Notes under the pieces: model-generated
The model's database searches: none
Told to the model about the DNA's origin: nothing
The model's input: the letters and a program-made list of their open reading frames with translations, nothing else
In this document: positions 11,968 through 59,099 of the stretch, in pieces
Numbering within the stretch: position 1 is the stretch's first letter
How the letters are laid out: every line of letters starts with the position of its first letter
NCBI GenBank assembly: GCA_041659065.1
Contig: JBAZYY010000001.1
Location: 60,847 to 124,846 of the forward strand
Direction: 5' to 3'
Length of the DNA stretch: 64,000 nt
Source: Parcubacteria group bacterium
Lineage (GTDB): Bacteria > Patescibacteriota > Minisyncoccia > Moranbacterales > UBA11712
Made by a program: the position numbers and the translations under genes

Positions 11968-12004
11968 AGCTAATAAGCAAAAATAGTCAGCCTTGGGCTG
12001 ACTA
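11968..12004. terminator. Bidirectional rho-independent terminator (rpmA / pyrG convergent)
   Basis: AGTCAGCC-ttg-GGCTGACT hairpin flanked by A- and T-runs. Confidence 0.7.
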
Positions 12005-13636
12005 TTTTTTGTTGGCAGCTGCTTTGACGAATTCCAAAAATAAGGGGTGGGGTTTCAGAGGTGAGGATTTAAATTCGGGATGAAATTGTGTCCCCAGAAA
12101 AAAGGGATGCATGCTTCTTGGCAGTTCGGCTATTTCCATCAATCGTTTGTCAGGTGATGTGCCACTGAACAGCAGGCCTTTTTCCTCAATAAGATCTATA
12201 TATTCAGGGTTAACTTCCCAGCGGTGGCGATGGCGCTCTGAAATCGCATTGCTCCTATAGGCTTGGCGCGCAATGGTGCCGTTTTTTATTATGGCCGGGT
12301 AGGCACCGAGCCGCATTGTCGCTCCATAGTTTTTGTCTTCCAAATTCTTTTTTTGTTCGGGCATTATGTCAATGACCGGATGCGCAGTGTTGCGATTTAC
12401 TTCCGTGGTGTGAGCATCCTTAAAGCCTAAAATATGCCGGCAGAACTCTATTACTGCAAGTTGCATGCCATAACAAAGCCCAAAGTATGGGATTTTATTG
12501 ATGCGGCAAAATTCGATAGCTTTGATTTTTCCTTCAATTCCCCGCTCTCCAAACCCGCCCGGAACGATAATTCCGGAATATTTTTTGAGATTTTTGAGTT
12601 TGGAGGGGCTTTTTTCGAATTCCTCGCTATTGATCCATTCGATAGCCGGTTTTCGGTGGTTTTTATAACAAGCGTGCTTCACGGACTCAATGACGGATAT
12701 ATACGCATCGGAAAGAACGAAATCTCCCGTGCCAAAATATTTACCCACAATTCCTATGCGCAATGGTTTTTTGGATAACTTAACATTTTGAACCATTGCC
12801 TTCCATTTGGTGAGGTCCTTCTTTTTTGATTTTAAATTGAGCTTTGCCAGCAAACGATCGCTAAGATGATCCTTTTCAAAATTTAGCGGGACTTCGTAGA
12901 TGCTTTCGACATCGGGAGCGCTGATAACATCATCCTCTTTCAGATTGCAGTGATCGGCTAGCTTTTCTTTTCTCTTTTTATCAAGGGCAAGCGCAGATCT
13001 AGCTACGATCAAGTCCGGTTGCACTCCGGCGGCATTCAGCGATCTTACTGCGTATTGGGTCGGCTTGGTTTTCATTTCTCCGATCATGGAGGGAATCGGG
13101 AGATAGCTTACGAGGACGAACATCACATCATCCCTGTGTCTCAGGCGCAGCATTCTGCCCGCTTCAATAAACAGCAGGCCCTGATATTCCCCAACTGTTC
13201 CTCCTATTTCGATTAACATCACGTCGGCCTTGGATTTTTGTTGGGCTTTTTGAATTCGGCGGATAATTTCTTTCGGTACATCCGGAACAACATCTACGCA
13301 ACGCCCGCCATAACCCATAGATCGCTCTCTGTCGATGATGGCCTTATAAACCATCCCATTAGTCATATAATTGGTGCTGGGTAAGGTAAGGCCAATAAAA
13401 CGCTCGTAATGTCCCATGTCTTGGTCGGTTTCCATCCCGTCATCTAAAACAAAAACCTCTCCATGCTCCGTTGGATTCATTGTTCCCGCGTCAACGTTCA
13501 GATAGGGGTCGATTTTCATGGTAGTAATCCGGAAGCCTTTCGATTGCAGGATATTTCCTATCGAGGCCGTAGTGATGCCTTTCCCAACGCCGCTCATCAC
13601 GCCGCCGACAACAAATATGTATTTGGGTTTTTTCAT
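12002..13636 (-). CDS. pyrG: CTP synthase
   Basis: N-terminal synthetase domain (VVGGVMSGVGKGIT) and C-terminal glutamine amidotransferase domain (GLCYGMQ); 544 aa. Confidence 0.95.
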   Translation of the reverse strand: MKKPKYIFVVGGVMSGVGKGITTASIGNILQSKGFRITTMKIDPYLNVDAGTMNPTEHGEVFVLDDGMETDQDMGHYERFIGLTLPSTNYMTNGMVYKAIIDRERSMGYGGRCVDVVPDVPKEIIRRIQKAQQKSKADVMLIEIGGTVGEYQGLLFIEAGRMLRLRHRDDVMFVLVSYLPIPSMIGEMKTKPTQYAVRSLNAAGVQPDLIVARSALALDKKRKEKLADHCNLKEDDVISAPDVESIYEVPLNFEKDHLSDRLLAKLNLKSKKKDLTKWKAMVQNVKLSKKPLRIGIVGKYFGTGDFVLSDAYISVIESVKHACYKNHRKPAIEWINSEEFEKSPSKLKNLKKYSGIIVPGGFGERGIEGKIKAIEFCRINKIPYFGLCYGMQLAVIEFCRHILGFKDAHTTEVNRNTAHPVIDIMPEQKKNLEDKNYGATMRLGAYPAIIKNGTIARQAYRSNAISERHRHRWEVNPEYIDLIEEKGLLFSGTSPDKRLMEIAELPRSMHPFFLGTQFHPEFKSSPLKPHPLFLEFVKAAANKK

Positions 13637-16355: not shown

Positions 16356-17417
16356 TTAGTTGAAGATATTCTTGCAGGCCTCGTGAATTTTGTCATAATT
16401 TCCGCCTTGAGGGAGAAGGATGTAGGTTTTTCCCTCGGGAGTATCGGCCCTCGATGAATATAGGAGGCCTTCATCAGTGGTGTCAAAAACCTTTTGCTTT
16501 ATCTGAGGATCCTGCATTTTTTGGGCGAGCTCATAGAATTTTTTCATTTCGGAAACATCCATATCCATCCGAACATCCGCTCCCAGTACTGTTAAAATAT
16601 CGTTAACTTTTCCAAAATCGGATAAGGTTCCCAGGCTCAAAAATTTATCCTTCAGGGCAATAAGCACCTGCTGCTGCCTTTTTGCCCGTTCGAAATCAGA
16701 AGATGCATAACGAGCTCTCACGAAGAACAAGGCTTTGTTGCCGTCAATATGGTTTTTCCCGGCTGGCAAGGAGAAATCCAGAGCATTTTCCCCTTCGAAT
16801 TGAGTAGGTTCAGAGAAAGGTTTGTCCAGATAAACATCCACTCCTCCCAGCTTGTTGATCAGTTCTTCAAATCCCACAAAGTCGATGCGCACCGCATAGT
16901 GGATTGGAAGCCCTGTAACTTCTCCTACGATTTTTTTCATCGCGTCGAGCCCTTGGTTTTCTCCTCTTTCTTCTGCGTAGGCATGAACAGCATTTATTTT
17001 CATCTGAGTGGAGCTTCCCGGCATGGTGACATAAAGATCTCTGGGAATTGAAATCAGGGCAATTTTATTTTCATTCGGTTTAATGGAGGCGACCATGATA
17101 GAATCAGCCAGCAGCCCCCCGCCAGGAATTTTTTCTCCGCGCATTCCGAGCAAGAGCACGTTTATCTGTCCTTCACTTTGTCCCTGGAGCTCGTTTACGC
17201 CTCCAACTACCGGAATCGAATTCCAAATGCTTTTTAAAAATCCATCCTTAGTTGAAATTTGGCTGAGAGTCATACCTGCTCGGTACATCACAAATCCTCC
17301 GGCGGCAACTATAAGCAGTATCAATATGATGAGTGCCTTAAACCATCTTCTTTTATAAAGTCTTTTCTTCTTTGGGAACCCATCTTGCCTGCCGGCTTTT
17401 CTCGAAAATACGCCCAT
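16356..17417 (-). CDS. LytR-CpsA-Psr (LCP) family cell-wall glycopolymer phosphotransferase
   Basis: N-terminal TM helix plus LCP core (ILLLGMRGE...ADSIMVASI...ISIPRDLYV). Confidence 0.85.
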   Translation of the reverse strand: MGVFSRKAGRQDGFPKKKRLYKRRWFKALIILILLIVAAGGFVMYRAGMTLSQISTKDGFLKSIWNSIPVVGGVNELQGQSEGQINVLLLGMRGEKIPGGGLLADSIMVASIKPNENKIALISIPRDLYVTMPGSSTQMKINAVHAYAEERGENQGLDAMKKIVGEVTGLPIHYAVRIDFVGFEELINKLGGVDVYLDKPFSEPTQFEGENALDFSLPAGKNHIDGNKALFFVRARYASSDFERAKRQQQVLIALKDKFLSLGTLSDFGKVNDILTVLGADVRMDMDVSEMKKFYELAQKMQDPQIKQKVFDTTDEGLLYSSRADTPEGKTYILLPQGGNYDKIHEACKNIFN

Positions 17418-43546: not shown

Positions 43547-43577
43547 CAAAAAAAAGGAAGCCTGGCTTCCTTTTTTT
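43547..43577. terminator. Bidirectional rho-independent terminator (rhodanese / groES convergent)
   Basis: A8-GGAAGCC-t-GGCTTCC-T7. Confidence 0.75.
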
Positions 43578-46269: not shown

Positions 46270-47307
46270 TTATTGTTGCGTGAAGATATCTCGGCAAGCG
46301 GTCTGCATCTGGGAATAATTATCCTGTCCCGCTATGGGGACCAAGACATAGCCCACTCCGCCAGTCCCAGGGACCTTCAGAAGGCCCTTCTCAGAATTTT
46401 CAAAAACCCGCTGGACGATATCGGCTTCTTTCAAGCTGATAAATTGGTCATAGAAACCTTTCATTTCATCAGGCGTAAGGTTTGTTTTGACATTATTGCC
46501 GATTATGGTCAGGATATTGTTCAGCTTGCCGAAATCCGCGAGCGTCCCCAACGTTACCAACTTGTCTTTCAACGCTTTGAGAATTACTTGTTGACGCTTG
46601 GAACGGTCGAAGTCATTGGTTGTCTCCCGGGCGCGGGCGTAGCAAAGAGCTTTGTCGCCATTCAAGCGATTGGTACCCGCCGGAAGAGAAAATACTCCTC
46701 CACATTCATTTCCTTCAACAAACTGCTTCGGTTCGGTGAATGGTTTCAGAATTCGTACGTCGACGCCTCCCACCGTATCAATCAGTTGCTTGAAACCGTC
46801 AAAATTAATAACTACTGCGTGATCGATTTTGAGGCCCGTGATTGTCCCCATCATTTCTTCCATTTTTTCCATCCCCTGGGCGCGTCCACCGCTTTGCCAA
46901 TAGGAATAGACTGAATTGATTTTGCCACGCTCATTCGTGCCGGGAATTTGCACGTAAAGGTCTCGCGGGACCGAAATCAGTCCGACTTTATTGTTTTTGG
47001 TGTCAAACGAAGCAACCATAATTGAATCAGCGAGCAGTCCCCCGTGAGGGTCGCTTGCGCCTCGCATGCCCAAAAGCAGGATATTAGTACGCCCATTATC
47101 TCCCGAAAGAGCTTTGGAGCCGCTGAGTAAACTGCCAAGGGCCGAATTGCCCGAGCCGGAGATTTTGTTCATAATATAACCGGTTTTCCAGGCAAAAAAT
47201 CCCCCCACGGCAACGATTATGATGATTACAAACAAGGATAATTTAAACCACCTTTTTTTATAAAATTTTTTCTTATGAGCCAGGCGTTCGGATTGAAAAT
47301 TTTTCAT
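46270..47307 (-). CDS. LytR-CpsA-Psr (LCP) family protein (second copy)
   Basis: N-terminal TM helix; NILLLGMRGASDPHGGLLADSIMVASF...ISVPRDLYV; paralog of 16356-17417. Confidence 0.85.
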   Translation of the reverse strand: MKNFQSERLAHKKKFYKKRWFKLSLFVIIIIVAVGGFFAWKTGYIMNKISGSGNSALGSLLSGSKALSGDNGRTNILLLGMRGASDPHGGLLADSIMVASFDTKNNKVGLISVPRDLYVQIPGTNERGKINSVYSYWQSGGRAQGMEKMEEMMGTITGLKIDHAVVINFDGFKQLIDTVGGVDVRILKPFTEPKQFVEGNECGGVFSLPAGTNRLNGDKALCYARARETTNDFDRSKRQQVILKALKDKLVTLGTLADFGKLNNILTIIGNNVKTNLTPDEMKGFYDQFISLKEADIVQRVFENSEKGLLKVPGTGGVGYVLVPIAGQDNYSQMQTACRDIFTQQ

Positions 47308-47801: not shown

Positions 47802-48332
47802 TCAAATAAGTATTAATTTTTTAACAAAGGTTATCTTCGTGCCTTGTTTAATTTCAGTATCTGCAGATTTGACTAATTTTCTCTTTCCCGGCACTTTCAT
47901 AAGTTTTTGTCCGTTGGTTTCAATAATAAATTCATCTGCGAATCCTTTTACTCTTGACAACCCATGTCCCGGTGAACCATATAAGATGTCATTATTCGGA
48001 TCGCCATCCCAGCTTTCATTATCAGCTACTATTACTGTAATTTTATTAGGTTCAAAGTTTACTGCTATTTCACCTCCGGTGGCGTACTCTAACGCATTTT
48101 TGCTCAGTTCAACTATGCAGTAGCAGAGGAAAGATATTTTTGGGTTGGCGGAATCAAGTTGATTCTCGGCAAATATTGTATCTAACCAAGCATTTAATCT
48201 TCCAACTAAGCGGTAAGTATCAATGGGTGTTTCAATATCGCCAAAATGATCGTCATCGAAATGAATTTTATAACATTTGGGATTAGTCTCTTTTTTCTCC
48301 GGTTGCTTAAATAACCTTCCTTCGTCTTCCAT
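47802..48332 (-). CDS. RsbW-like anti-sigma-factor kinase / GHKL ATPase-domain protein
   Basis: N-box-like ELSKNALEYA, G1-like VIVADNESWDG and G2-like GSPGHGLSRVKGFAD. Confidence 0.5.
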   Translation of the reverse strand: MEDEGRLFKQPEKKETNPKCYKIHFDDDHFGDIETPIDTYRLVGRLNAWLDTIFAENQLDSANPKISFLCYCIVELSKNALEYATGGEIAVNFEPNKITVIVADNESWDGDPNNDILYGSPGHGLSRVKGFADEFIIETNGQKLMKVPGKRKLVKSADTEIKQGTKITFVKKLILI

Positions 48333-48383
48333 GCAAATTCTATAAATATTAAGCTAATTATCCTTCTCCCCCGCTATTGGAAT

Positions 48384-48782
48384 TCAGAGCGGCTCATCTC
48401 GATATTCCCCCTTGTAGTTTATAAGTTGATCACTAGGAATTCCAAGCGATAGTCCGTATCGCTCTGCCTCGTCGTATTGCTCTTTGCTTTTGCGATTCAC
48501 GCGGAAAACTTTGTCTCGGTAAATTATATAATGGTGCGTATCGTTTTTGAAATCGGCGTACCAGGAACCGCCGTGCGCGCTGTCGAGCGAGTGGCTGATT
48601 TTTTTCGCGACTGACGCCGCCTCGTCTTCCGGAATGTCAACTTCATGTTTTGTCCACTGTGAAAGCCAAGGGGTTTCATGATGCGCGTCAACTTTTTCAA
48701 TCTCCGTGCCCAAAATTTTGATATCTTTCAAAATATACTTGTTTTCCAGACTCTCTTCGATTATAACGCCTCTGTAGTTCAT
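48384..48782 (-). CDS. Hypothetical protein
   Basis: 132 aa, His-rich, no recognisable motif. Preceded by an AAGGGA RBS and the shared palindromic promoter motif. Confidence 0.45.
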   Translation of the reverse strand: MNYRGVIIEESLENKYILKDIKILGTEIEKVDAHHETPWLSQWTKHEVDIPEDEAASVAKKISHSLDSAHGGSWYADFKNDTHHYIIYRDKVFRVNRKSKEQYDEAERYGLSLGIPSDQLINYKGEYRDEPL

Positions 48783-48804
48783 ATATTTCCCTTATACACC
48801 GTCG

Positions 48805-48847
48805 GAATTACATAATTATTTTATCCCTAAGATTAGACTTTAGAAAT
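48805..48847. repeat. Bipartite palindromic promoter motif, copy 1 (GGAATTACATAATT ... CCCTAAGATTAGACTTTAGAAA)
   Basis: Read from sequence; a degenerate copy of the motif also seen at 48881-48919 and 50072-50127. Confidence 0.6.
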
Positions 48848-48880
48848 GGCTACAAATTGCATCATAATATTACGGCCGTG

Positions 48881-48919
48881 GAATTATGAATCTGTTTCCT
48901 AAAGTTCGACTTTAGGAAT
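48881..48919. repeat. Bipartite palindromic promoter motif, copy 2 (GGAATTATGAAT ... TCCTAAAGTTCGACTTTAGGA)
   Basis: The 21-nt hairpin TCCTAAAGT-tcg-ACTTTAGGA is identical to the one at 50106-50126. Confidence 0.65.
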
Positions 48920-48927
48920 GATTGGAT

Positions 48928-50025
48928 TTATCTTTTTCGAGAATATGCCAATTGCTTACCGCGAAATTGCTTCTTTGCCGCAATATGCTTTGCCTTATCA
49001 CTCGTTTTATGTTTTATTCTTGCGATCTGGTCGGCTATCATTCGCTCGGCGTAATATTGTCTTTTGTCTCTCGCATTCTTTGGATCAAAATCTTTCCCTT
49101 TTTCTTTGAGGAGCCACTTTCTAATGAGCTTTTGCTCGTCTGGTGTGGCTAAAGTAGCGAATTCTTCTGGATAATTAATATATTGTTCACAGAGTATCGC
49201 CCAATATTCTGTCGTTATGAGATAATTTTTTTCATTGGGGTTAGGATTTCTAATTGCAGCAAGATAATTTCGAAAGACGCTTGTATTCGCAAGCTCGGAA
49301 GTCTGATAAGCGCGGCTCACTTCGACAAAAAAATCAATCCTTTGCTCCGGTGTCATAAAATTACTGAACGTCCCCTGATGCATATGCCCTATCTCGTGGC
49401 TTAATCTTAGAACAATTAACCTCGCATTATAACTAACTCCAAGCTCTTTCCCTTTATATTTTGCATTTTGGGGCGCTTTAAAAAAAATCAGATTGTCCTT
49501 GTTGAGACTTTCAACTCCTCCGACGACATAATCATTTTGCATCCCGTATTTGGGCTGAGCCTTATAAACCTTATTTTGAAATTTTACTTCTGCAACATTT
49601 TTGTTTATTGTTCCCGCAGGATAACATCCTTCTTCTTCGCTAAAAATTTTTGACAAAAATTTCTGGTCAACTCCAAGCTTTTCGAACCCAATTATTTTTG
49701 GGCGAGCTGGAATTTTTCCCTTGGCTTCGCGAGCCTGTTTGTCGGCAATCGATAATTGTTCAAATAAGTAATCCGAGTATAAATCATCGAGGTATTCAAT
49801 TTTTTCCCGATACTCCGGGTTATTTTTTAAAATTCTTTCTCTATATTTTTCAGCTGCCTGTGATTTGACTTGTTTTTTGGCTAGCGCCGCGTCACTTGTG
49901 CCCAAAGTCAAAATTCCGGCTGCCAATGCGACGTTAGCGAATTTTTTAAACAAATTTCTTTTTGCCACAGGATTATTTTCAGAATCCGAAACTTTTTTTA
50001 TTTTGGTAAAATTTTCAAGTCCCAT
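48928..50025 (-). CDS. Secreted HExxH-motif protein (putative zinc metallopeptidase), Lys-rich
   Basis: N-terminal signal/anchor (VALAAGILTLGTSDAALA), LSHEIGHMHQG motif and a basic C-terminus. Confidence 0.55.
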   Translation of the reverse strand: MGLENFTKIKKVSDSENNPVAKRNLFKKFANVALAAGILTLGTSDAALAKKQVKSQAAEKYRERILKNNPEYREKIEYLDDLYSDYLFEQLSIADKQAREAKGKIPARPKIIGFEKLGVDQKFLSKIFSEEEGCYPAGTINKNVAEVKFQNKVYKAQPKYGMQNDYVVGGVESLNKDNLIFFKAPQNAKYKGKELGVSYNARLIVLRLSHEIGHMHQGTFSNFMTPEQRIDFFVEVSRAYQTSELANTSVFRNYLAAIRNPNPNEKNYLITTEYWAILCEQYINYPEEFATLATPDEQKLIRKWLLKEKGKDFDPKNARDKRQYYAERMIADQIARIKHKTSDKAKHIAAKKQFRGKQLAYSRKR

Positions 50026-50071
50026 AAGGCTAATCTATTCTATGTGATTTTTTATATCTTCCCTCGCCGCC

Positions 50072-50127
50072 GGAATTACGTAATTTGTCATGTAGCTCCC
50101 CTGATTCCTAAAGTTCGACTTTAGGAG
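50072..50127. repeat. Bipartite palindromic promoter motif, copy 3 (GGAATTACGTAATT ... TCCTAAAGTTCGACTTTAGGA)
   Basis: Perfect 12-nt palindrome AATTACGTAATT plus a perfect 9-bp-stem hairpin; upstream of the HExxH gene. Confidence 0.65.
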
Positions 50128-50186
50128 AGATTATTGTCTGCACGATTATTTATTTACCTCCCCGATTCATAATCGCCAACTCTCTC

Positions 50187-50555
50187 TTAACTCTCGATAA
50201 TTACCTCCACCTTATCTAAATCAAAAACCTCTTTAACCTCAATGATGATCGCGCATTTGACCTCAAATTTTGTGCCTTTGTTTCTTTTTTTGGCGATTTC
50301 GAAATATTCTCCTTTGTCATGAAGATCGGCCGTCCCTTTGAGGCGCAGATATTTCCCGCTGTTCATGGCGACGACCGAAACCCGATTGTCTTTTTTGAGA
50401 TTCGAAAGAGTCGTTTGCGTTTGGCAAGCATTGATGAGTAATTTTTCACCAATGAAGCCCTCCGACATCATCACGATGGTATGCGGCCCGCTTTCTTCGG
50501 AATAGGTCGCAAGAACCAGCTCCACTCCCTCTTTAAATATTTCTTTCCAGTCCAT
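50187..50555 (-). CDS. Pyridoxamine 5'-phosphate oxidase-like FMN-binding split-barrel protein
   Basis: 122 aa with a family-like N-terminus (VELVLATYSEESGPHTIVMM) and C-terminus (YLRLKGTA). Confidence 0.55.
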   Translation of the reverse strand: MDWKEIFKEGVELVLATYSEESGPHTIVMMSEGFIGEKLLINACQTQTTLSNLKKDNRVSVVAMNSGKYLRLKGTADLHDKGEYFEIAKKRNKGTKFEVKCAIIIEVKEVFDLDKVEVIIES

Positions 50556-50753
50556 AAATTTTATTTACTTAGATAATCGCGGATTTGTAATCCTTTCCTA
50601 GCTAAACAGGGCTTTGTCGTTTAATGAGGCAGTAAACCAACCGATGTCGCCCACGAGCTTAATTGGCAGGGTGAGCTTGATGCTGCATCCTCATCCTAGC
50701 CCAAATTCCGCATTATTTCAAATAAAAAGCCCCGGTCGGAAAAAAATGAAACA

Positions 50754-50790
50754 TTGACAATGGGTGGTTTTTGCTGTAATTTTCAGAAAA
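50754..50790 (+). promoter_or_regulatory. Sigma70-like promoter (TTGACA ... TGTAAT) upstream of the 50809 ORF
   Basis: TTGACA at 50754-50759 and a -10-like TGTAAT ~15-17 nt downstream; GAGGAGG RBS 7 nt before the ATG. Confidence 0.45.
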
Positions 50791-50808
50791 ATACCGAGAT
50801 GAGGAGGC

Positions 50809-51228
50809 GTGGCCATGGAGGGATATGGGGGAAAAATTTCACAAAAAATAGCCAGAATTTGGAATCGCGTCATTGTCAGGAGTAACTATGATGTACTCTA
50901 TGACGAACTCCGAAGCCTGGAGTTCTTTTGCATCCTGTTCGTAGTTGGGGCTTTCGGCTTCCTTTTTGCCCAATGCGAATTCGCATCAGTTTTAGAAAAA
51001 GATCAATTTCTCGTGTTTCTTGAGGCGATCTTTTTTCTCTTACAAGCCGTGATGGCATTATTTCTGAAGGCCGCATCAAAAAAAGCCATCCTCAGGCTCA
51101 AGAAGGACTTTGAGTTCATCAATAGCGGATTTGCGCGCATGATAATCTTAACTAGGTACGAACGTGCCGGTGCGCAATTCCGCAGGATGTTGAGAAAAAT
51201 TTTCCCTGGCCAGTTGAGAGGTATATAA
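50809..51228 (+). CDS. Small membrane protein, hypothetical
   Basis: Good promoter and RBS, two hydrophobic helices and a basic C-terminus. Confidence 0.4.
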   Translation: MAMEGYGGKISQKIARIWNRVIVRSNYDVLYDELRSLEFFCILFVVGAFGFLFAQCEFASVLEKDQFLVFLEAIFFLLQAVMALFLKAASKKAILRLKKDFEFINSGFARMIILTRYERAGAQFRRMLRKIFPGQLRGI

Positions 51229-54570: not shown

Positions 54571-54599
54571 TTGACAATGGAGATAAAAAAGACTATAAT
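54571..54599 (+). promoter_or_regulatory. Consensus sigma70 promoter TTGACA-N17-TATAAT with ~175 nt leader before the 54775 gene
   Basis: TTGACA at 54571-54576 and TATAAT at 54594-54599; a palindromic CCATCAATGATGG lies just downstream of the -10. Confidence 0.55.
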
Positions 54600-54774
54600 A
54601 GATAGTTGACCATCAATGATGGCAATTTTTGTTTTTGGGATTGGAGTTTAGTTATTATCTTAGGTTCCTTAAATAACGTAATTTTTTCTACGATGCTAGC
54701 TTTTTTTCGCTTATAAATAGGAAAAAGAAAGCTCGTCTCGTAGAGAGAGCTATTAAATTTTATGGAGGTGTACG

Positions 54775-55584
54775 ATGGCAGCAAAGTCGTATGCTACTGG
54801 CTGGACCTCGGAATCCCCGACGCCCGCCCAGATGAAAGAGTTCATGGCACAAGCTGAAAGCGGTCGGATCACTAAAACCCGGATGCAAAATTTTCTTCGG
54901 GCAAACCATGACCAGATTCTGCTTTCCAGAACGACCGAGGCAGAAGCTCGGGCGAGCGAGATTTTAGATCGCCGCAATGTTATCACTGCCTATGAGGTCG
55001 CAGAGAGATGGGCAATGGAAATTGATCCCCCTACCCGGATTCCCTACACCGCAAAAACGTTGGAAAGGTGTGCCCGGGAAAATGACAGTAATGAGAACTG
55101 GTACCTGATTTATGTCATCGGACTTTCATTGCGTGAGCAATACAGCATCCGTGGACCTAATATTCCCGGCGGTCGGGGTGGGAGTTTTAGGGGCAAACCG
55201 CCTGATATCAGCGACGAATATCTAGAGCGTTCATTTCAATCTGGATACTACCTCTTAAACATCCGGTGCAATTTCACTAAAATGAGGTGGCAAGATCAGA
55301 CAAATGTTATAGGGGCCTGGGGTGAAAAATATAAGCGCGCAGACGAGCGCATGCTTAGCGAGGTTATGCTATCTCGCCTTATGGTGAAATATGTTCACTT
55401 CGCTGGCATTTATCCTGGATTCTATCACTGGGGATTTGGGATGATGCCCGAATGCAATGGTAAGAGGATGGGAAGAGTCACTCTATATCAGGAGGGCGGT
55501 AATATCTGCTTTTCCTCCCAGCATCCTGACCACTTTAGTTCCTCAAACTATGGCGTCGTCATGCTTCGTGAGCCCGATTTCTAA
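54775..55584 (+). CDS. Hypothetical protein encoded by a compositionally atypical (GC-rich) gene
   Basis: Strong GGAGGTG RBS 6 nt upstream. GC content is visibly ~10 points above neighbouring genes. Strong terminator downstream. No recognisable motif. Confidence 0.55.
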   Translation: MAAKSYATGWTSESPTPAQMKEFMAQAESGRITKTRMQNFLRANHDQILLSRTTEAEARASEILDRRNVITAYEVAERWAMEIDPPTRIPYTAKTLERCARENDSNENWYLIYVIGLSLREQYSIRGPNIPGGRGGSFRGKPPDISDEYLERSFQSGYYLLNIRCNFTKMRWQDQTNVIGAWGEKYKRADERMLSEVMLSRLMVKYVHFAGIYPGFYHWGFGMMPECNGKRMGRVTLYQEGGNICFSSQHPDHFSSSNYGVVMLREPDF

Positions 55585-59011: not shown

Positions 59012-59072
59012 AGGCTTAGGTAGGCGGGGCGACGCAATTCCGCCAAAGGCGGATAAACTCCACGCGTAGGTC

Positions 59073-59099
59073 GCCGGTTCGATCCCGGCCATCGGCTCA
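59073..59099 (+). pseudogene. tRNA 3' fragment (T-arm GCCGG-TTCGATC-CCGGC plus acceptor 3' strand CATCGGC-T-CA) lacking an upstream D/anticodon arm
   Basis: Canonical T-loop. The acceptor strand pairs perfectly with GCCGATG at 58865-58871, ~205 nt upstream. No anticodon arm can be folded from the intervening sequence. Confidence 0.4.

What the first reader, a model, noticed from the sequence alone, without database searches (positions are those of the whole stretch)
48797..50130. Repeated bipartite palindromic motif in the promoters of three consecutive minus-strand genes
Three intergenic copies (48805-48847, 48881-48919, 50072-50127) share a two-part motif. The first part is a 12-14 nt palindrome GGAATTAC(G/A)TAATT; AATTACGTAATT is perfect in copy 3. 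Its 3'-terminal TT lies 3-20 nt before a 21-nt hairpin-forming palindrome TCCTAAAGT-tcg-ACTTTAGGA. The hairpin is identical in copies 2 and 3 and degenerate in copy 1. A related GGATTtgtAATCC lies upstream of the PNPOx-like gene at ~50598-50610. The copies sit 25-100 nt upstream of start codons, not after stop codons, and lack T-runs. That pattern fits operator sites of a shared regulator or a miniature repeat family better than terminators.
Basis: seen in the sequence. Interest (0 to 1): 0.55.

Follow-up and report, generated by a model that had tools for sequence, protein, structure and literature searches.

The report
REP-like hairpin repeats plus promoter-side motif
The repeated "bipartite motif" is two separate things sitting side by side between genes of a tiny uncultured (CPR/Moranbacteria-type) bacterium: a mobile-looking palindromic repeat of the REP kind, tied in related genomes to its own small transposase, and a conserved motif that sits just in front of genes. 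It is not a pair of operator sites for one regulator.

Summary
TCCTAAAGTTCGACTTTAGGA occurs exactly twice (48897-48917, 50106-50126; 0 expected by chance), with a decayed, non-folding third copy at 48824-48846. GGAATTAC(G/A)TAATT is solid in copies 1 and 3 only.

The two parts are separable modules.

(1) The hairpin belongs to a dispersed palindrome family in several Moranbacteria/Parcubacteria genomes, with 69 distinct contexts. It is almost always intergenic and downstream of a stop codon: 24 co-directional sites, 8 convergent, 0 divergent. In relatives it flanks a ~221-aa Y1/HUH transposase. Six transposase loci carry five distinct palindrome types that change with the transposase. The modelled fold best matches the E. 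coli REP-associated tyrosine transposase. This is a REP/RAYT-like system.

(2) The first part is the upstream edge of "box A", (AAWTACGTAWTT)n-TTCCGGCGGGGG-AGATAAT. In related genomes box A also occurs without the hairpin, 6-35 nt before start codons. It is promoter-like, but its function is unproven.

Orthologues of the flanking genes lack both modules, so neither is a conserved operator of these genes. No transposase gene lies in the window. An operator reading stays possible only for the box A palindrome. This is a new member of a known kind, of moderate interest.

The parts
50105..50127 (.). REP-like hairpin, copy 3 (TTCCTAAAGTTCGACTTTAGGAG; 9-bp stem, 3-nt loop). It lies 59 nt after the PNPOx-like stop and 79 nt before the 365-aa start.
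   Evidence: Exact 21-mer. DNA and RNA folds. Family membership.
50052..50085 (-). Box A, copy 3. On the gene strand: AATTACGTAATT palindrome (50074-50085), TTCCGGCGG (50067-50075), -10-like ATATAA (50052-50057). ATG of the 365-aa gene is at 50025.
48896..48918 (.). REP-like hairpin, copy 2 (TTCCTAAAGTTCGACTTTAGGAA; 10-bp stem). It lies 9 nt after the stop of the 365-aa gene.
   Evidence: The metagenome contigs L024 and L038 that carry this locus both end at this hairpin.
48867..48890 (-). Degenerate box A, copy 2 (gene strand TTCATAATTCCACGGCCGTAATAT). No gene follows it; the next feature is copy 1.
   Evidence: Recognisable only from its context, and not significant on its own.
48824..48853 (.). 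Decayed hairpin, copy 1 (TCCCTAAGATTAGACTTTAGAAA) plus flank tGGCTAC. It does not fold.
   Evidence: The flank tGGCTACAAAT matches tGGTTACAAAT beside the L012 copy.
48791..48817 (-). Box A, copy 1. On the gene strand: AATTATGTAATT (48806-48817), TTCCGACGG (48799-48807), -10-like TATAAG (48791-48796). ATG of the 132-aa gene is at 48782.
48357..48382 (-). Fourth, degenerate box A with no hairpin (TTCCAATAGCGGGGGAGAAGGATAAT). It starts directly after the 132-aa stop and lies 24 nt before the 176-aa start. It is at the same position, directly after the stop of the 132-aa gene, as box A in L062:2900 and L064:2916.
48928..50025 (-). 365-aa gene bracketed by copies 3 and 2. It has a signal-peptide-like N-terminus and an HEIGH motif. 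Only 6 homologues were found.
48384..48782 (-). 132-aa conserved CPR hypothetical gene downstream of copy 1. There are 1239 homologues, and three checked orthologues have no upstream repeat.
50187..50555 (-). PNPOx-like gene upstream of copy 3.
   Evidence: Pfam PF01243, E=4.8e-7.

Best explanation
The 'bipartite motif' is a juxtaposition of two independent intergenic modules, read here on the minus (gene) strand as stop codon, hairpin, box A, ATG.

Module 1 (the hairpin). TTCCTAAAGT-CGA-ACTTTAGGAA is a member of a REP-like (repetitive extragenic palindrome) family specific to Moranbacteria/Parcubacteria. In related genomes the same palindrome brackets a ~221-aa Y1/HUH transposase related to REP-associated tyrosine transposases (RAYT). 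Each transposase lineage has its own palindrome. By analogy with IS200/IS605 and RAYT enzymes, that transposase is inferred to recognise the hairpin in single-stranded DNA and to have spread it to sites just downstream of genes. The window holds two intact copies and one decayed copy, and no transposase gene. Once inserted, a copy is transcribed with the upstream gene. It most likely acts as a 3'-end or inter-cistronic stem-loop, giving mRNA protection or attenuation as known for REPs. This step is inferred, not shown.

This is the upstream edge of 'box A': one or two AAWTACGTAWTT palindromes in fixed phase with TTCCGGCGGGGG and an AGATAAT-like hexamer. In relatives box A occurs with or without the hairpin, 6-35 nt before start codons and in one orientation. 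It is most likely a promoter, possibly with an operator, of a class distinct from the canonical TTGACA/TATAAT promoters also present in this genome. This too is inferred.

The local cluster. The cluster (unit 3, 365-aa gene, unit 2, unit 1, 132-aa gene) is specific to this lineage. Close relatives have the 132-aa gene 15-16 nt behind another gene. The units therefore arrived with, or mediated, a rearrangement that brought in the 365-aa gene.
For: Real repeat: exact copies with 0 expected by chance.

Dispersed family: 14 genome loci and 39 metagenome loci, giving 106 hits in 69 distinct contexts. At least 16 copies lie in the sampled parts of one MAG, RIFOXYB1_FULL_43_19. Flanking genes are unrelated to those in the window.

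Position: 24 co-directional, 8 convergent, 0 divergent, and 2 inside a CDS (both in the transposase gene). Convergent neighbours were confirmed as real genes. This matches the published REP distribution (PMC3733652 abstract).

Transposase link:
- L008:864-1529 hits Pfam Y1_Tnp (E=1e-7) and NCBIfam REP_Tyr_transpos (E=5e-9).
- The AF2 model (pLDDT 88.6) best matches 4ER8, RAYT bound to a REP hairpin (E=3.9e-5, TM 0.67), followed by IS608, ISDra2 and IS200 TnpA.
- HUH and Tyr motifs are invariant in 24 homologues.
- Six transposase loci are each flanked up- and downstream by their own palindrome type, with compensatory stem changes.
- JGI names several homologues 'REP element-mobilizing transposase RayT'.
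- Inverted doublets occur in L006, L009, L023, L037, L044 and L056.

Decay: copy 1 no longer folds.

Not an ordinary terminator: the genome has canonical hairpin+T-run terminators elsewhere.

Box A is separable: it occurs without the hairpin in L054, L062, L063 and L064. Across 17 sites the consensus is TTCCGGCGGGGG|AGATAAT, with an ORF start 6-35 nt downstream in 14 of 17.

Not conserved with the genes.
Against: - No Y1 transposase gene lies in the 64-kb window.
- The only such gene tentatively assigned to the same MAG (P0111, assigned by accession proximity) carries a different palindrome, TGGAAGTTCGACTTCCA, which is absent from the window.
- All three window copies lie within 1.3 kb and there are none elsewhere in 64 kb. 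For this genome, dispersal is not shown, and local duplication could explain the cluster.
- Copy numbers per genome (about 1-16 seen) are far below those of classical REPs.
- There is no GTAG or CGTC tag. About 30% of copies have GGTTA(A/C) one nt from the stem foot instead.
- The NCBIfam RAYT score (36 bits) is below the curated cutoff of 80.
- In the window, box A occurs only next to the hairpins, apart from 48357-48382. This hints that hairpin and box A may have been copied as one unit here.
- The simple sigma-70 scan does not call box A as a promoter, and no TSS data exist.
- Mobility, cleavage and any RNA-level role are untested.
Confidence: 0.66

Rival explanations
1. Both halves are operator sites of one transcription factor that co-regulates the three consecutive genes as a regulon.
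For: Both parts are palindromes and lie upstream of start codons. The box A palindrome sits in fixed phase with a -10-like hexamer at many gene starts in relatives. The neighbouring genes are flavin/redox related.
Against: The hairpin occurs between convergent genes and never between divergent ones. It occurs inside and around a transposase gene. It is missing upstream of orthologues of the 132-aa gene and homologues of the 365-aa gene. Copy 1 is decayed and copy 2 has no gene after its box A. The spacing between the two halves varies from 3 to 22 nt. The downstream genes across loci share no functional theme.
Confidence: 0.08
2. The hairpins are locally evolved RNA elements: T-run-less terminators or attenuators, or 3'-end mRNA-stabilising stem-loops. 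On this view they have no mobile origin, and their similarity between sites reflects selection for one protein- or RNase-binding structure.
For: They always lie downstream of a stop codon, at 0-391 nt and often under 25 nt. The RNA hairpin is stable at -9.8 kcal/mol with z=-4. Copy 2 is 9 nt after a stop.
Against: Identical 19-23-mers occur at unrelated loci and in different species. They are physically associated with, and co-vary with, Y1 transposase genes. Inverted doublets exist. The genome uses ordinary GC-rich hairpin+T-run terminators elsewhere. The terminator scan is at chance level (3 found against 2.3 expected). An RNA role after insertion is compatible with the best explanation and does not replace it.
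Confidence: 0.12
3. The units (hairpin + box A) are boundaries of a mobile gene cassette. On this view the 365-aa gene, bracketed by direct copies 3 and 2, was moved as cargo, either by Y1-transposase single-strand excision between two like-oriented hairpins or by site-specific or homologous recombination between units. This would be an integron-like or PATE-like cassette system in CPR bacteria.
For: Direct repeats bracket exactly one gene. Copies 2 and 3 also share 4-5 flanking nt on each side (91% identity over 32 nt). Relatives lack this gene at the site. A similar gene-unit-gene-unit array is seen in L052. The transposase gene itself is bracketed by like-oriented hairpins, as in IS200.
Against: No recombinase or transposase gene is in the window. 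Homologues of the 365-aa gene in L054 and L055 are not bracketed by the same units. No empty-site/filled-site pair was recovered. The palindrome is much shorter than an attC site.
Confidence: 0.07
4. The cluster is merely a local tandem or segmental duplication of one intergenic spacer, with no family behind it.
For: All three copies lie within 1.3 kb in one orientation, and none is elsewhere in 64 kb.
Against: The same hairpin, and the hairpin + box A combination, occur at non-homologous loci in other genomes: L012, L014, L034, L052 and L062:4975-5040.
Confidence: 0.05

Closest known systems
REP / REPIN elements with REP-associated tyrosine transposases (RAYT; E. coli TnpA_REP, PDB 4ER8; Pseudomonas REPIN-RAYT systems)
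   Same: The repeat is a short perfect palindrome. It is extragenic and lies downstream of genes, between co-directional and convergent ORFs. Several families occur per genome, each paired with its own divergent Y1/HUH transposase that the palindrome flanks. Inverted doublets occur. The transposase sits at a syntenic position, after a PilX_N-like gene in L008, L015, L059 and L060, which suggests vertical inheritance. The best fold match is 4ER8.
   Different: There is no GTAG/CGTC tag; some copies have GGTTA(A/C) next to the stem. Copy number is low (units to tens). The hairpins next to the transposase gene are in the same orientation (IS200-like) rather than inverted. A copy of the cognate palindrome lies inside the transposase CDS. 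The host is a CPR/Patescibacteria lineage, for which I found no published REP/RAYT description. The protein scores below the NCBIfam RAYT cutoff. The window itself has only 3 clustered, like-oriented singlets and no transposase gene.
IS200/IS605-family insertion sequences and their miniature derivatives (PATEs)
   Same: A Y1 HUH transposase of IS200 size (about 730 bp from hairpin to hairpin in L008). Like-oriented subterminal hairpins lie at both ends. A 5'-UTR hairpin has its 3' arm overlapping the AGGAG ribosome-binding site, as in IS200.
   Different: Paralogues within one genome are only 53-58% identical, rather than being identical IS copies. The genomic position is conserved across species. 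No target-site or cleavage tetranucleotide was identified.
E. coli BIMEs (REP clusters with interspersed conserved linker motifs)
   Same: Palindromic units are combined with other short conserved motifs in mosaic intergenic arrays. Arrays with two palindrome families and GGTTA-type linkers are seen in L013, L004 and L052.
   Different: The accompanying motif here (box A) also occurs alone, at a fixed distance and orientation before start codons. It therefore behaves like a promoter element rather than a BIME linker.
Neisseria Correia elements and other promoter-carrying MITEs
   Same: A small intergenic repeat juxtaposed with a -10-like box facing the downstream gene. It may act as terminator and promoter at the same time.
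   Different: There are no terminal inverted repeats or target-site duplication. The hairpin and the promoter-like box are separable, and most hairpin copies (about 55 of 69 contexts) have no box A.

Membership tests
REP/REPIN-RAYT system | Short (about 20-40 nt) palindrome able to form a stem-loop | tested here: met
   23 nt with a 9-10-bp stem and 3-nt loop. DNA fold -8.0 kcal/mol (z=-4.5) and RNA fold -9.8 (z=-4.0). Copy 1 no longer folds.
REP/REPIN-RAYT system | Many copies at non-homologous extragenic sites within one genome | tested here: inconclusive
   Met in a relative: 10 exact copies plus at least 6 degenerate ones on 6 contigs of RIFOXYB1_FULL_43_19. In the window's own genome only 3 clustered copies are seen in 64 kb, and the rest of that genome was not available.
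REP/REPIN-RAYT system | Location downstream of ORFs, between unidirectional or convergent genes, and rarely between divergent ones | tested here: met
   24 co-directional, 8 convergent and 0 divergent sites. This matches PMC3733652.
REP/REPIN-RAYT system | The cognate palindrome flanks a Y1 (HUH) transposase gene and co-varies with it | tested here: met
   Six transposase loci (L008, L056, L058-L061) each have their own palindrome up- and downstream. This holds in relatives only; there is no such gene in the window.
REP/REPIN-RAYT system | The protein belongs to the RAYT clade of Y1 transposases | tested here: inconclusive
   Pfam Y1_Tnp scores 32.5 bits, above its cutoff of 23. NCBIfam REP_Tyr_transpos scores 36 bits, below its cutoff of 80. 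The best fold hit is 4ER8 RAYT. HUH and Tyr are invariant. No PDB hit at sequence level.
REP/REPIN-RAYT system | Conserved unpaired GTAG (or CGTC) tag at one end of the palindrome | tested here: not met
   No GTAG or CGTC adjoins the stem in 69 contexts. Instead, GGTTA(A/C/T) lies 1 nt from the stem foot in about 21 of them.
REP/REPIN-RAYT system | Inverted doublets (REPINs) | tested here: met
   Doublets occur in L006, L009, L023, L033, L037, L044 and L056. They are not present in the window, where all copies are like-oriented singlets.
REP/REPIN-RAYT system | The transposase binds and cleaves the single-stranded hairpin, and the copies are mobile | not testable with these tools
   This needs biochemistry or insertion polymorphism between strains. 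Only indirect evidence exists: orthologues of the 132-aa gene lack the units.
Autonomous IS200/IS605 insertion sequence | Multiple near-identical transposase copies per genome at varied sites | tested here: not met
   Paralogues in one MAG are 53-58% identical. One decayed remnant exists (L013). The position after a PilX_N-like gene is conserved across species.
Transcription-factor operator / regulon | Site retained upstream of orthologous genes, restricted to promoter regions | tested here: not met
   The hairpin is absent upstream of orthologues and is present between convergent genes. For the box A palindrome alone the test is inconclusive: it has a fixed phase and orientation before start codons.
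Intrinsic (Rho-independent) terminator | GC-rich stem followed by a T-run on the transcribed strand | tested here: not met
   The stem has 3 G-C pairs and is followed by ATCAGGGG or ACAGATTC on the gene strand. Genuine terminators with T-runs exist at 11979-12009 and 43549-43577. The scan is at chance level.
Integron attC cassette site | Site of at least 55 nt with R''-L''/L'-R' architecture, next to an IntI integrase | tested here: not met
   The palindrome is only 23 nt. No integrase was found among 30 neighbouring ORFs scanned. Whole-window protein annotation was not exhaustive.
Known RNA family (Rfam) | Match to a covariance model | tested here: not met
   At gathering score there are only tRNAs. 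The relaxed search of 48250-50850 gives only chance-level hits.

The most novel reading that the evidence does not exclude
Hairpin + box A units are portable 'terminator-promoter' boundaries that let the Y1 transposase, or recombination between units, move whole genes. On this reading the 365-aa gene bracketed by like-oriented copies 3 and 2 is cargo of a REP-bounded cassette. This would be a gene-shuffling system in streamlined CPR genomes that supplies each inserted gene with its own promoter.
Probability: 0.07. Interest if true: 0.8.

Novelty: new member of a known kind. Interest (0 to 1): 0.4.

Why it matters
REP/RAYT systems are described mostly from Proteobacteria. Finding palindrome families with co-varying Y1 transposases in Moranbacteria/Parcubacteria has two consequences. 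First, even ~1-Mb episymbiont genomes with very short spacers keep such elements. Second, it gives a compact model, with few copies and several paralogous transposase/palindrome pairs, for asking what RAYTs are kept for.

The analysis also separates out box A, TTCCGGCGGGGG-AGATAAT with AAWTACGTAWTT palindromes. This is a recurrent motif in front of genes that may mark a promoter class or regulon in organisms where no promoter has been mapped. That is directly testable by TSS mapping in metatranscriptomes.

For annotation, the result warns against reading such palindromes as operators.

Tried and rejected
- GGATTtgtAATCC at 50581-50593 as a fourth copy: chance level and unrelated.
- Canonical terminator reading: no T-run, and real terminators look different.
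- Rfam: nothing.
- tRNA-like T-arm idea for AGTTCGACT: no tRNA is called there.
- Integron attC idea, prompted by CCTAAC...GTTAGG in the sister palindrome family: the site is too short, there is no integrase, and the palindromes flank Y1 transposases instead.
- Box A as a Shine-Dalgarno element: the distance from the G-run to ATG varies from 6 to 35 nt.
- Box A as a standard sigma-70 promoter: the -35 region fits TTGACA poorly, and the scan does not call it.
- Search for a transposase homologue in the window: none.
- Search in the window for the sister palindromes CCTAACATTCAATGTTAGG and TGGAAGTTCGACTTCCA: none.
- Sequence-level PDB searches with the transposase and with its profile: no hits. 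The fold search was needed.
- Identifying a cognate transposase in the window's own MAG through cluster look-ups: only P0111 (a different palindrome type) could be tentatively assigned, by accession proximity.
- Empty-site comparison for the 365-aa gene: its few homologues are not syntenic, and two had no DNA available.
- Literature searches for REP/RAYT in CPR and for the motif strings: nothing relevant.
- L007 (Bacillaceae) and L010 (Bacteroidaceae) matches to the 19-mer: these are ordinary longer terminator stems and were excluded as chance matches.
Full report
WHAT IS IN THE SEQUENCE

The region 48300-50700 carries four co-directional minus-strand genes:
- a PNPOx-like gene (50187-50555);
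- a 365-aa protein with a signal-like N-terminus and an HEIGH motif (48928-50025);
- a 132-aa conserved hypothetical (48384-48782);
- a 176-aa protein (47802-48332).

The 21-mer TCCTAAAGTTCGACTTTAGGA is exact at 48897-48917 and 50106-50126, with no match in 100 shuffles. A third copy at 48824-48846 differs at 5 of 23 positions and no longer folds. GGAATTAC(G/A)TAATT is clear at 48804-48817 and 50072-50085. Copy 2 keeps only GGAATTATGA, which is not significant alone.

The spacers lie between co-directional genes, so every copy is both upstream of a start and 9-81 nt downstream of a stop. The extra palindrome GGATTtgtAATCC is at 50581-50593, is at chance level and is unrelated.

THE HAIRPIN IS A DISPERSED FAMILY

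A scan of one genome per species with the 19-mer core returned 14 loci.
- Twelve are Candidatus Moranbacteria/Parcubacteria MAGs, counting L004, a 1.6-kb contig labelled Pseudomonadales that is evidently Moranbacteria-like and mis-binned. One MAG, RIFOXYB1_FULL_43_19, has 10 exact copies on six contigs.
- Two are unrelated bacteria, where the 19-mer is part of a longer ordinary terminator stem.

A metagenome scan with the 21-mer added 39 loci. Two of them (L024, L038) are the window's own locus. Allowing mismatches gives 106 hits in 69 distinct sequence contexts. None of the flanking genes is homologous to the window's genes.

For the well-preserved copies with callable neighbours, 24 lie between co-directional genes, 8 between convergent genes and none between divergent genes. 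The only two inside an ORF are inside a transposase gene. Several convergent neighbours were confirmed as real genes: PIN/histidine kinase, desulfoferrodoxin, amidohydrolase and an HI0933-like protein. A promoter-bound operator should show the opposite bias. The observed bias is the one published for REPs (PMC3733652).

THE LINK TO A Y1 TRANSPOSASE

In L008 the palindrome lies 14 nt before the start and 5 nt after the stop of a 221-aa ORF. A further inverted copy lies 92 nt upstream, and one copy is inside the CDS.

Evidence that the protein is a RAYT-like Y1 transposase:
- It hits Pfam Y1_Tnp (E=1e-7).
- Its best NCBIfam hit is REP_Tyr_transpos (E=5e-9), but at 36 bits it is below the curated 80-bit cutoff.
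- It has 1977 homologues, mostly ~221 aa from Moranbacteria/Parcubacteria. JGI labels several of them RayT.
- In an alignment of 24 homologues the N-terminal YH..NRG, the HUH motif (NHxH) and a Y...N motif are invariant.
- Sequence searches of the PDB find nothing.
- An AlphaFold model (pLDDT 88.6) has as its best structural match 4ER8, the E. coli REP-associated tyrosine transposase bound to a REP hairpin. The IS608, ISDra2 and IS200 transposases follow.

Six transposase loci were read, and each is bracketed by its own palindrome:
- TTCCTAAAGTTCGACTTTAGGAA (L008);
- ATTCCTAAAGCTCGGCTTTAGGAAT (L061, with compensatory stem changes);
- TCCTTAAGTTAAACTTTAGGAA (L060);
- TGGAAGTTCGACTTCCA doublets (L056);
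- CTCCCAACATCGGATGTTGGGAG (L058);
- TACCAACATTCAATGTTGGTA (L059).

One MAG carries at least three paralogues that are only 53-58% identical. The gene repeatedly sits after a PilX_N-like gene (L008, L015, L059, L060), with decayed N-terminal remnants at the same place in L004 and L013. Together these points describe a RAYT-type domesticated transposase with cognate REPs, not a multi-copy IS. Inverted doublets also occur (L006, L009, L023, L037, L044, L056).

The differences from classical REPs are these:
- There is no GTAG/CGTC tag. GGTTA(A/C) lies next to the stem in about 30% of copies.
- Copy number is low.
- The hairpins next to the transposase gene are like-oriented.

THE FIRST PART IS A DIFFERENT MODULE

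The same arrangement recurs elsewhere. I call it box A.

In loci fetched through protein homology, which are therefore unbiased with respect to the hairpin, box A occurs without the hairpin. These are L054:4650, L062:2900, L063:63, L063:871, L064:585, L064:1243 and L064:2916. In L062:4975-5040 it occurs with a degenerate hairpin.

Seventeen distinct sites give the consensus TA(A/T)TTCCGGCGGGGG|A(G)ATAAT. An ORF start follows 6-35 nt later in 14 of them. Eleven have one or two AAWTACGTAWTT-type palindromes abutting TTCC in fixed phase.

The palindrome's upper part varies: AATTACGTAATT; two tandem AAATACGTATTT; ATTACGCAA-ctaa-TTGCGTAAT; GGAATTAC-N10-GTAATTCC. It could therefore be a structural element or an operator.

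The window also holds a fourth, degenerate box A at 48357-48382, right after the 132-aa stop and before the 176-aa gene. Box A lies at the same position after the 132-aa orthologue in L062 and L064.

Box A is otherwise absent from the 64-kb window. The window does have a perfect TTGACA-17-TATAAT promoter at 54571-54600. If box A is a promoter, it is therefore of a distinct class. The sigma-70 scan does not call it. Its function is inferred from position and orientation only.

NOT CONSERVED WITH THE GENES

Three orthologues of the 132-aa gene (75-81% identity; L062, L063, L064) start 15-16 nt after the preceding gene, with neither hairpin nor box A upstream. L063 is syntenic downstream, with GIY-YIG and Zincin_1 genes.

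Of the few homologues of the 365-aa gene, L054 has no palindrome. L055 has a palindrome of the sister family (CTCCAACATTCAATGTTAGG) before its ATG.

The units, and the 365-aa gene they bracket, are therefore a lineage-specific rearrangement.

THE WINDOW'S OWN GENOME

The window comes from an NCBI MAG labelled 'Parcubacteria group bacterium' (locus tags WC858_00525 and WC858_00530; 339-kb contig). No Y1 transposase gene lies in the window.

One homologue, P0111, has a protein accession 822 numbers after the window's protein and probably belongs to the same MAG. This is an inference. P0111 is flanked by TGGAAGTTCGACTTCCA doublets, which do not occur in the window. Whether the genome has a cognate transposase for the window's hairpin is unknown.

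MECHANISM

Shown:
- The repeat is real.
- The family is dispersed in relatives.
- Copies lie downstream of genes.
- The palindrome is physically associated with, and co-varies with, a RAYT-like Y1 transposase.
- The hairpin and box A are separable.
- Both are absent at orthologous sites.

Inferred:
- The Y1 enzyme recognises the single-stranded hairpin and spread it, by analogy with 4ER8 and IS608.
- Transcribed copies act as inter-cistronic stem-loops, as known for REPs.
- Box A is a promoter, possibly carrying an operator.
- The three window units multiplied locally or arrived with the 365-aa gene. Copies 2 and 3 share extra flanking bases (91% identity over 32 nt). Copy 2's box A has no gene after it.

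VERDICT

The hairpin is a REP-like repeat, a new member of a known kind in a phylum where I found no published description. The first part is the edge of a separate, conserved motif that precedes genes. Interest is moderate.

Noticed in passing
L008:1309-1331, L015:9325-9347, L060:1697-1721, L061:1694-1718, L056:2115-2151: The Y1 transposase genes carry a copy (in L056 a doublet) of their OWN flanking palindrome inside the coding sequence. It always starts about 190-220 nt into the gene, between the N-terminal YH..NRG motif and the HUH motif, and encodes e.g. FLKSNFRK. The internal copy changes together with the flanking palindrome type. This could reflect autoregulation, or the origin of the repeat family. 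I know of no description of this.
   Followed up: partly
L062:2900, L062:5027, L063:63, L063:871, L064:585, L064:1243, L064:2916, L054:4650, L039:506; window 48357-48382: Box A, TTCCGGCGGGGG-AGATAAT, often preceded by 1-2 AAWTACGTAWTT palindromes, recurs 6-35 nt before start codons of unrelated genes in several Parcubacteria. It is nearly absent from this 64-kb window. It may mark a promoter class or regulon.
   Followed up: partly
L059:1355-1415 and 2176-2198; L058:1484-1512 and 2201-2223; L004, L013, L014, L052, L055:1044-1063: Sister palindrome families (CCAACATTCAATGTTGG / CCTAACATTCAATGTTAGG, and CTCCCAACATCGGATGTTGGGAG) each have their own Y1 transposase paralogue. They are often interleaved with the window's family in mosaic arrays with GGTTA(A/C/T) linkers. 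None occurs in the window.
   Followed up: partly
L013:347-470 and L004:334-430: Decayed remnants of the transposase gene (only the first 19-20 codons) sit between palindrome copies, at the same position after a pilin-like gene as the intact gene in L008. L004 is labelled Pseudomonadales but is evidently a Moranbacteria-like contig, so it is probably mis-binned.
   Followed up: partly
window 54571-54774: A perfect TTGACA-17-TATAAT promoter is followed by a leader of about 170 nt before the gene at 54775. The leader contains a near-palindrome AATAACGTAATT at 54672-54683. It may be a structured leader or a small RNA. There is no Rfam hit at gathering score.
   Followed up: no
window 11979-12009 and 43549-43577: Two long perfect palindromes with A-runs and T-runs on both sides (14-bp stems) look like bidirectional intrinsic terminators. 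They show what ordinary terminators look like in this genome.
   Followed up: partly
window 59014-59098: ARAGORN calls an 85-nt tRNA-Phe with anticodon AAA directly after tRNA-Thr. Rfam's tRNA model does not reach gathering score there. It may be a false call or an unusual tRNA.
   Followed up: no
L024 (start) and L038 (end), equivalent to window 48886-48918: Two independent metagenome contigs covering this locus both end at hairpin copy 2. This is as expected if the palindrome breaks the assembly graph.
   Followed up: no
window 46270-47307 and 16356-17417: Two LytR_cpsA_psr paralogues are 46% identical within the window.
   Followed up: no
L008:1566-1622 (read on the minus strand): The transposase gene has its own extended -10 promoter (TGTATAAT). 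The palindrome then lies in the 5' UTR, and its 3' arm contains the AGGAG ribosome-binding site. This resembles the RBS-sequestering stem-loop of IS200.
   Followed up: no
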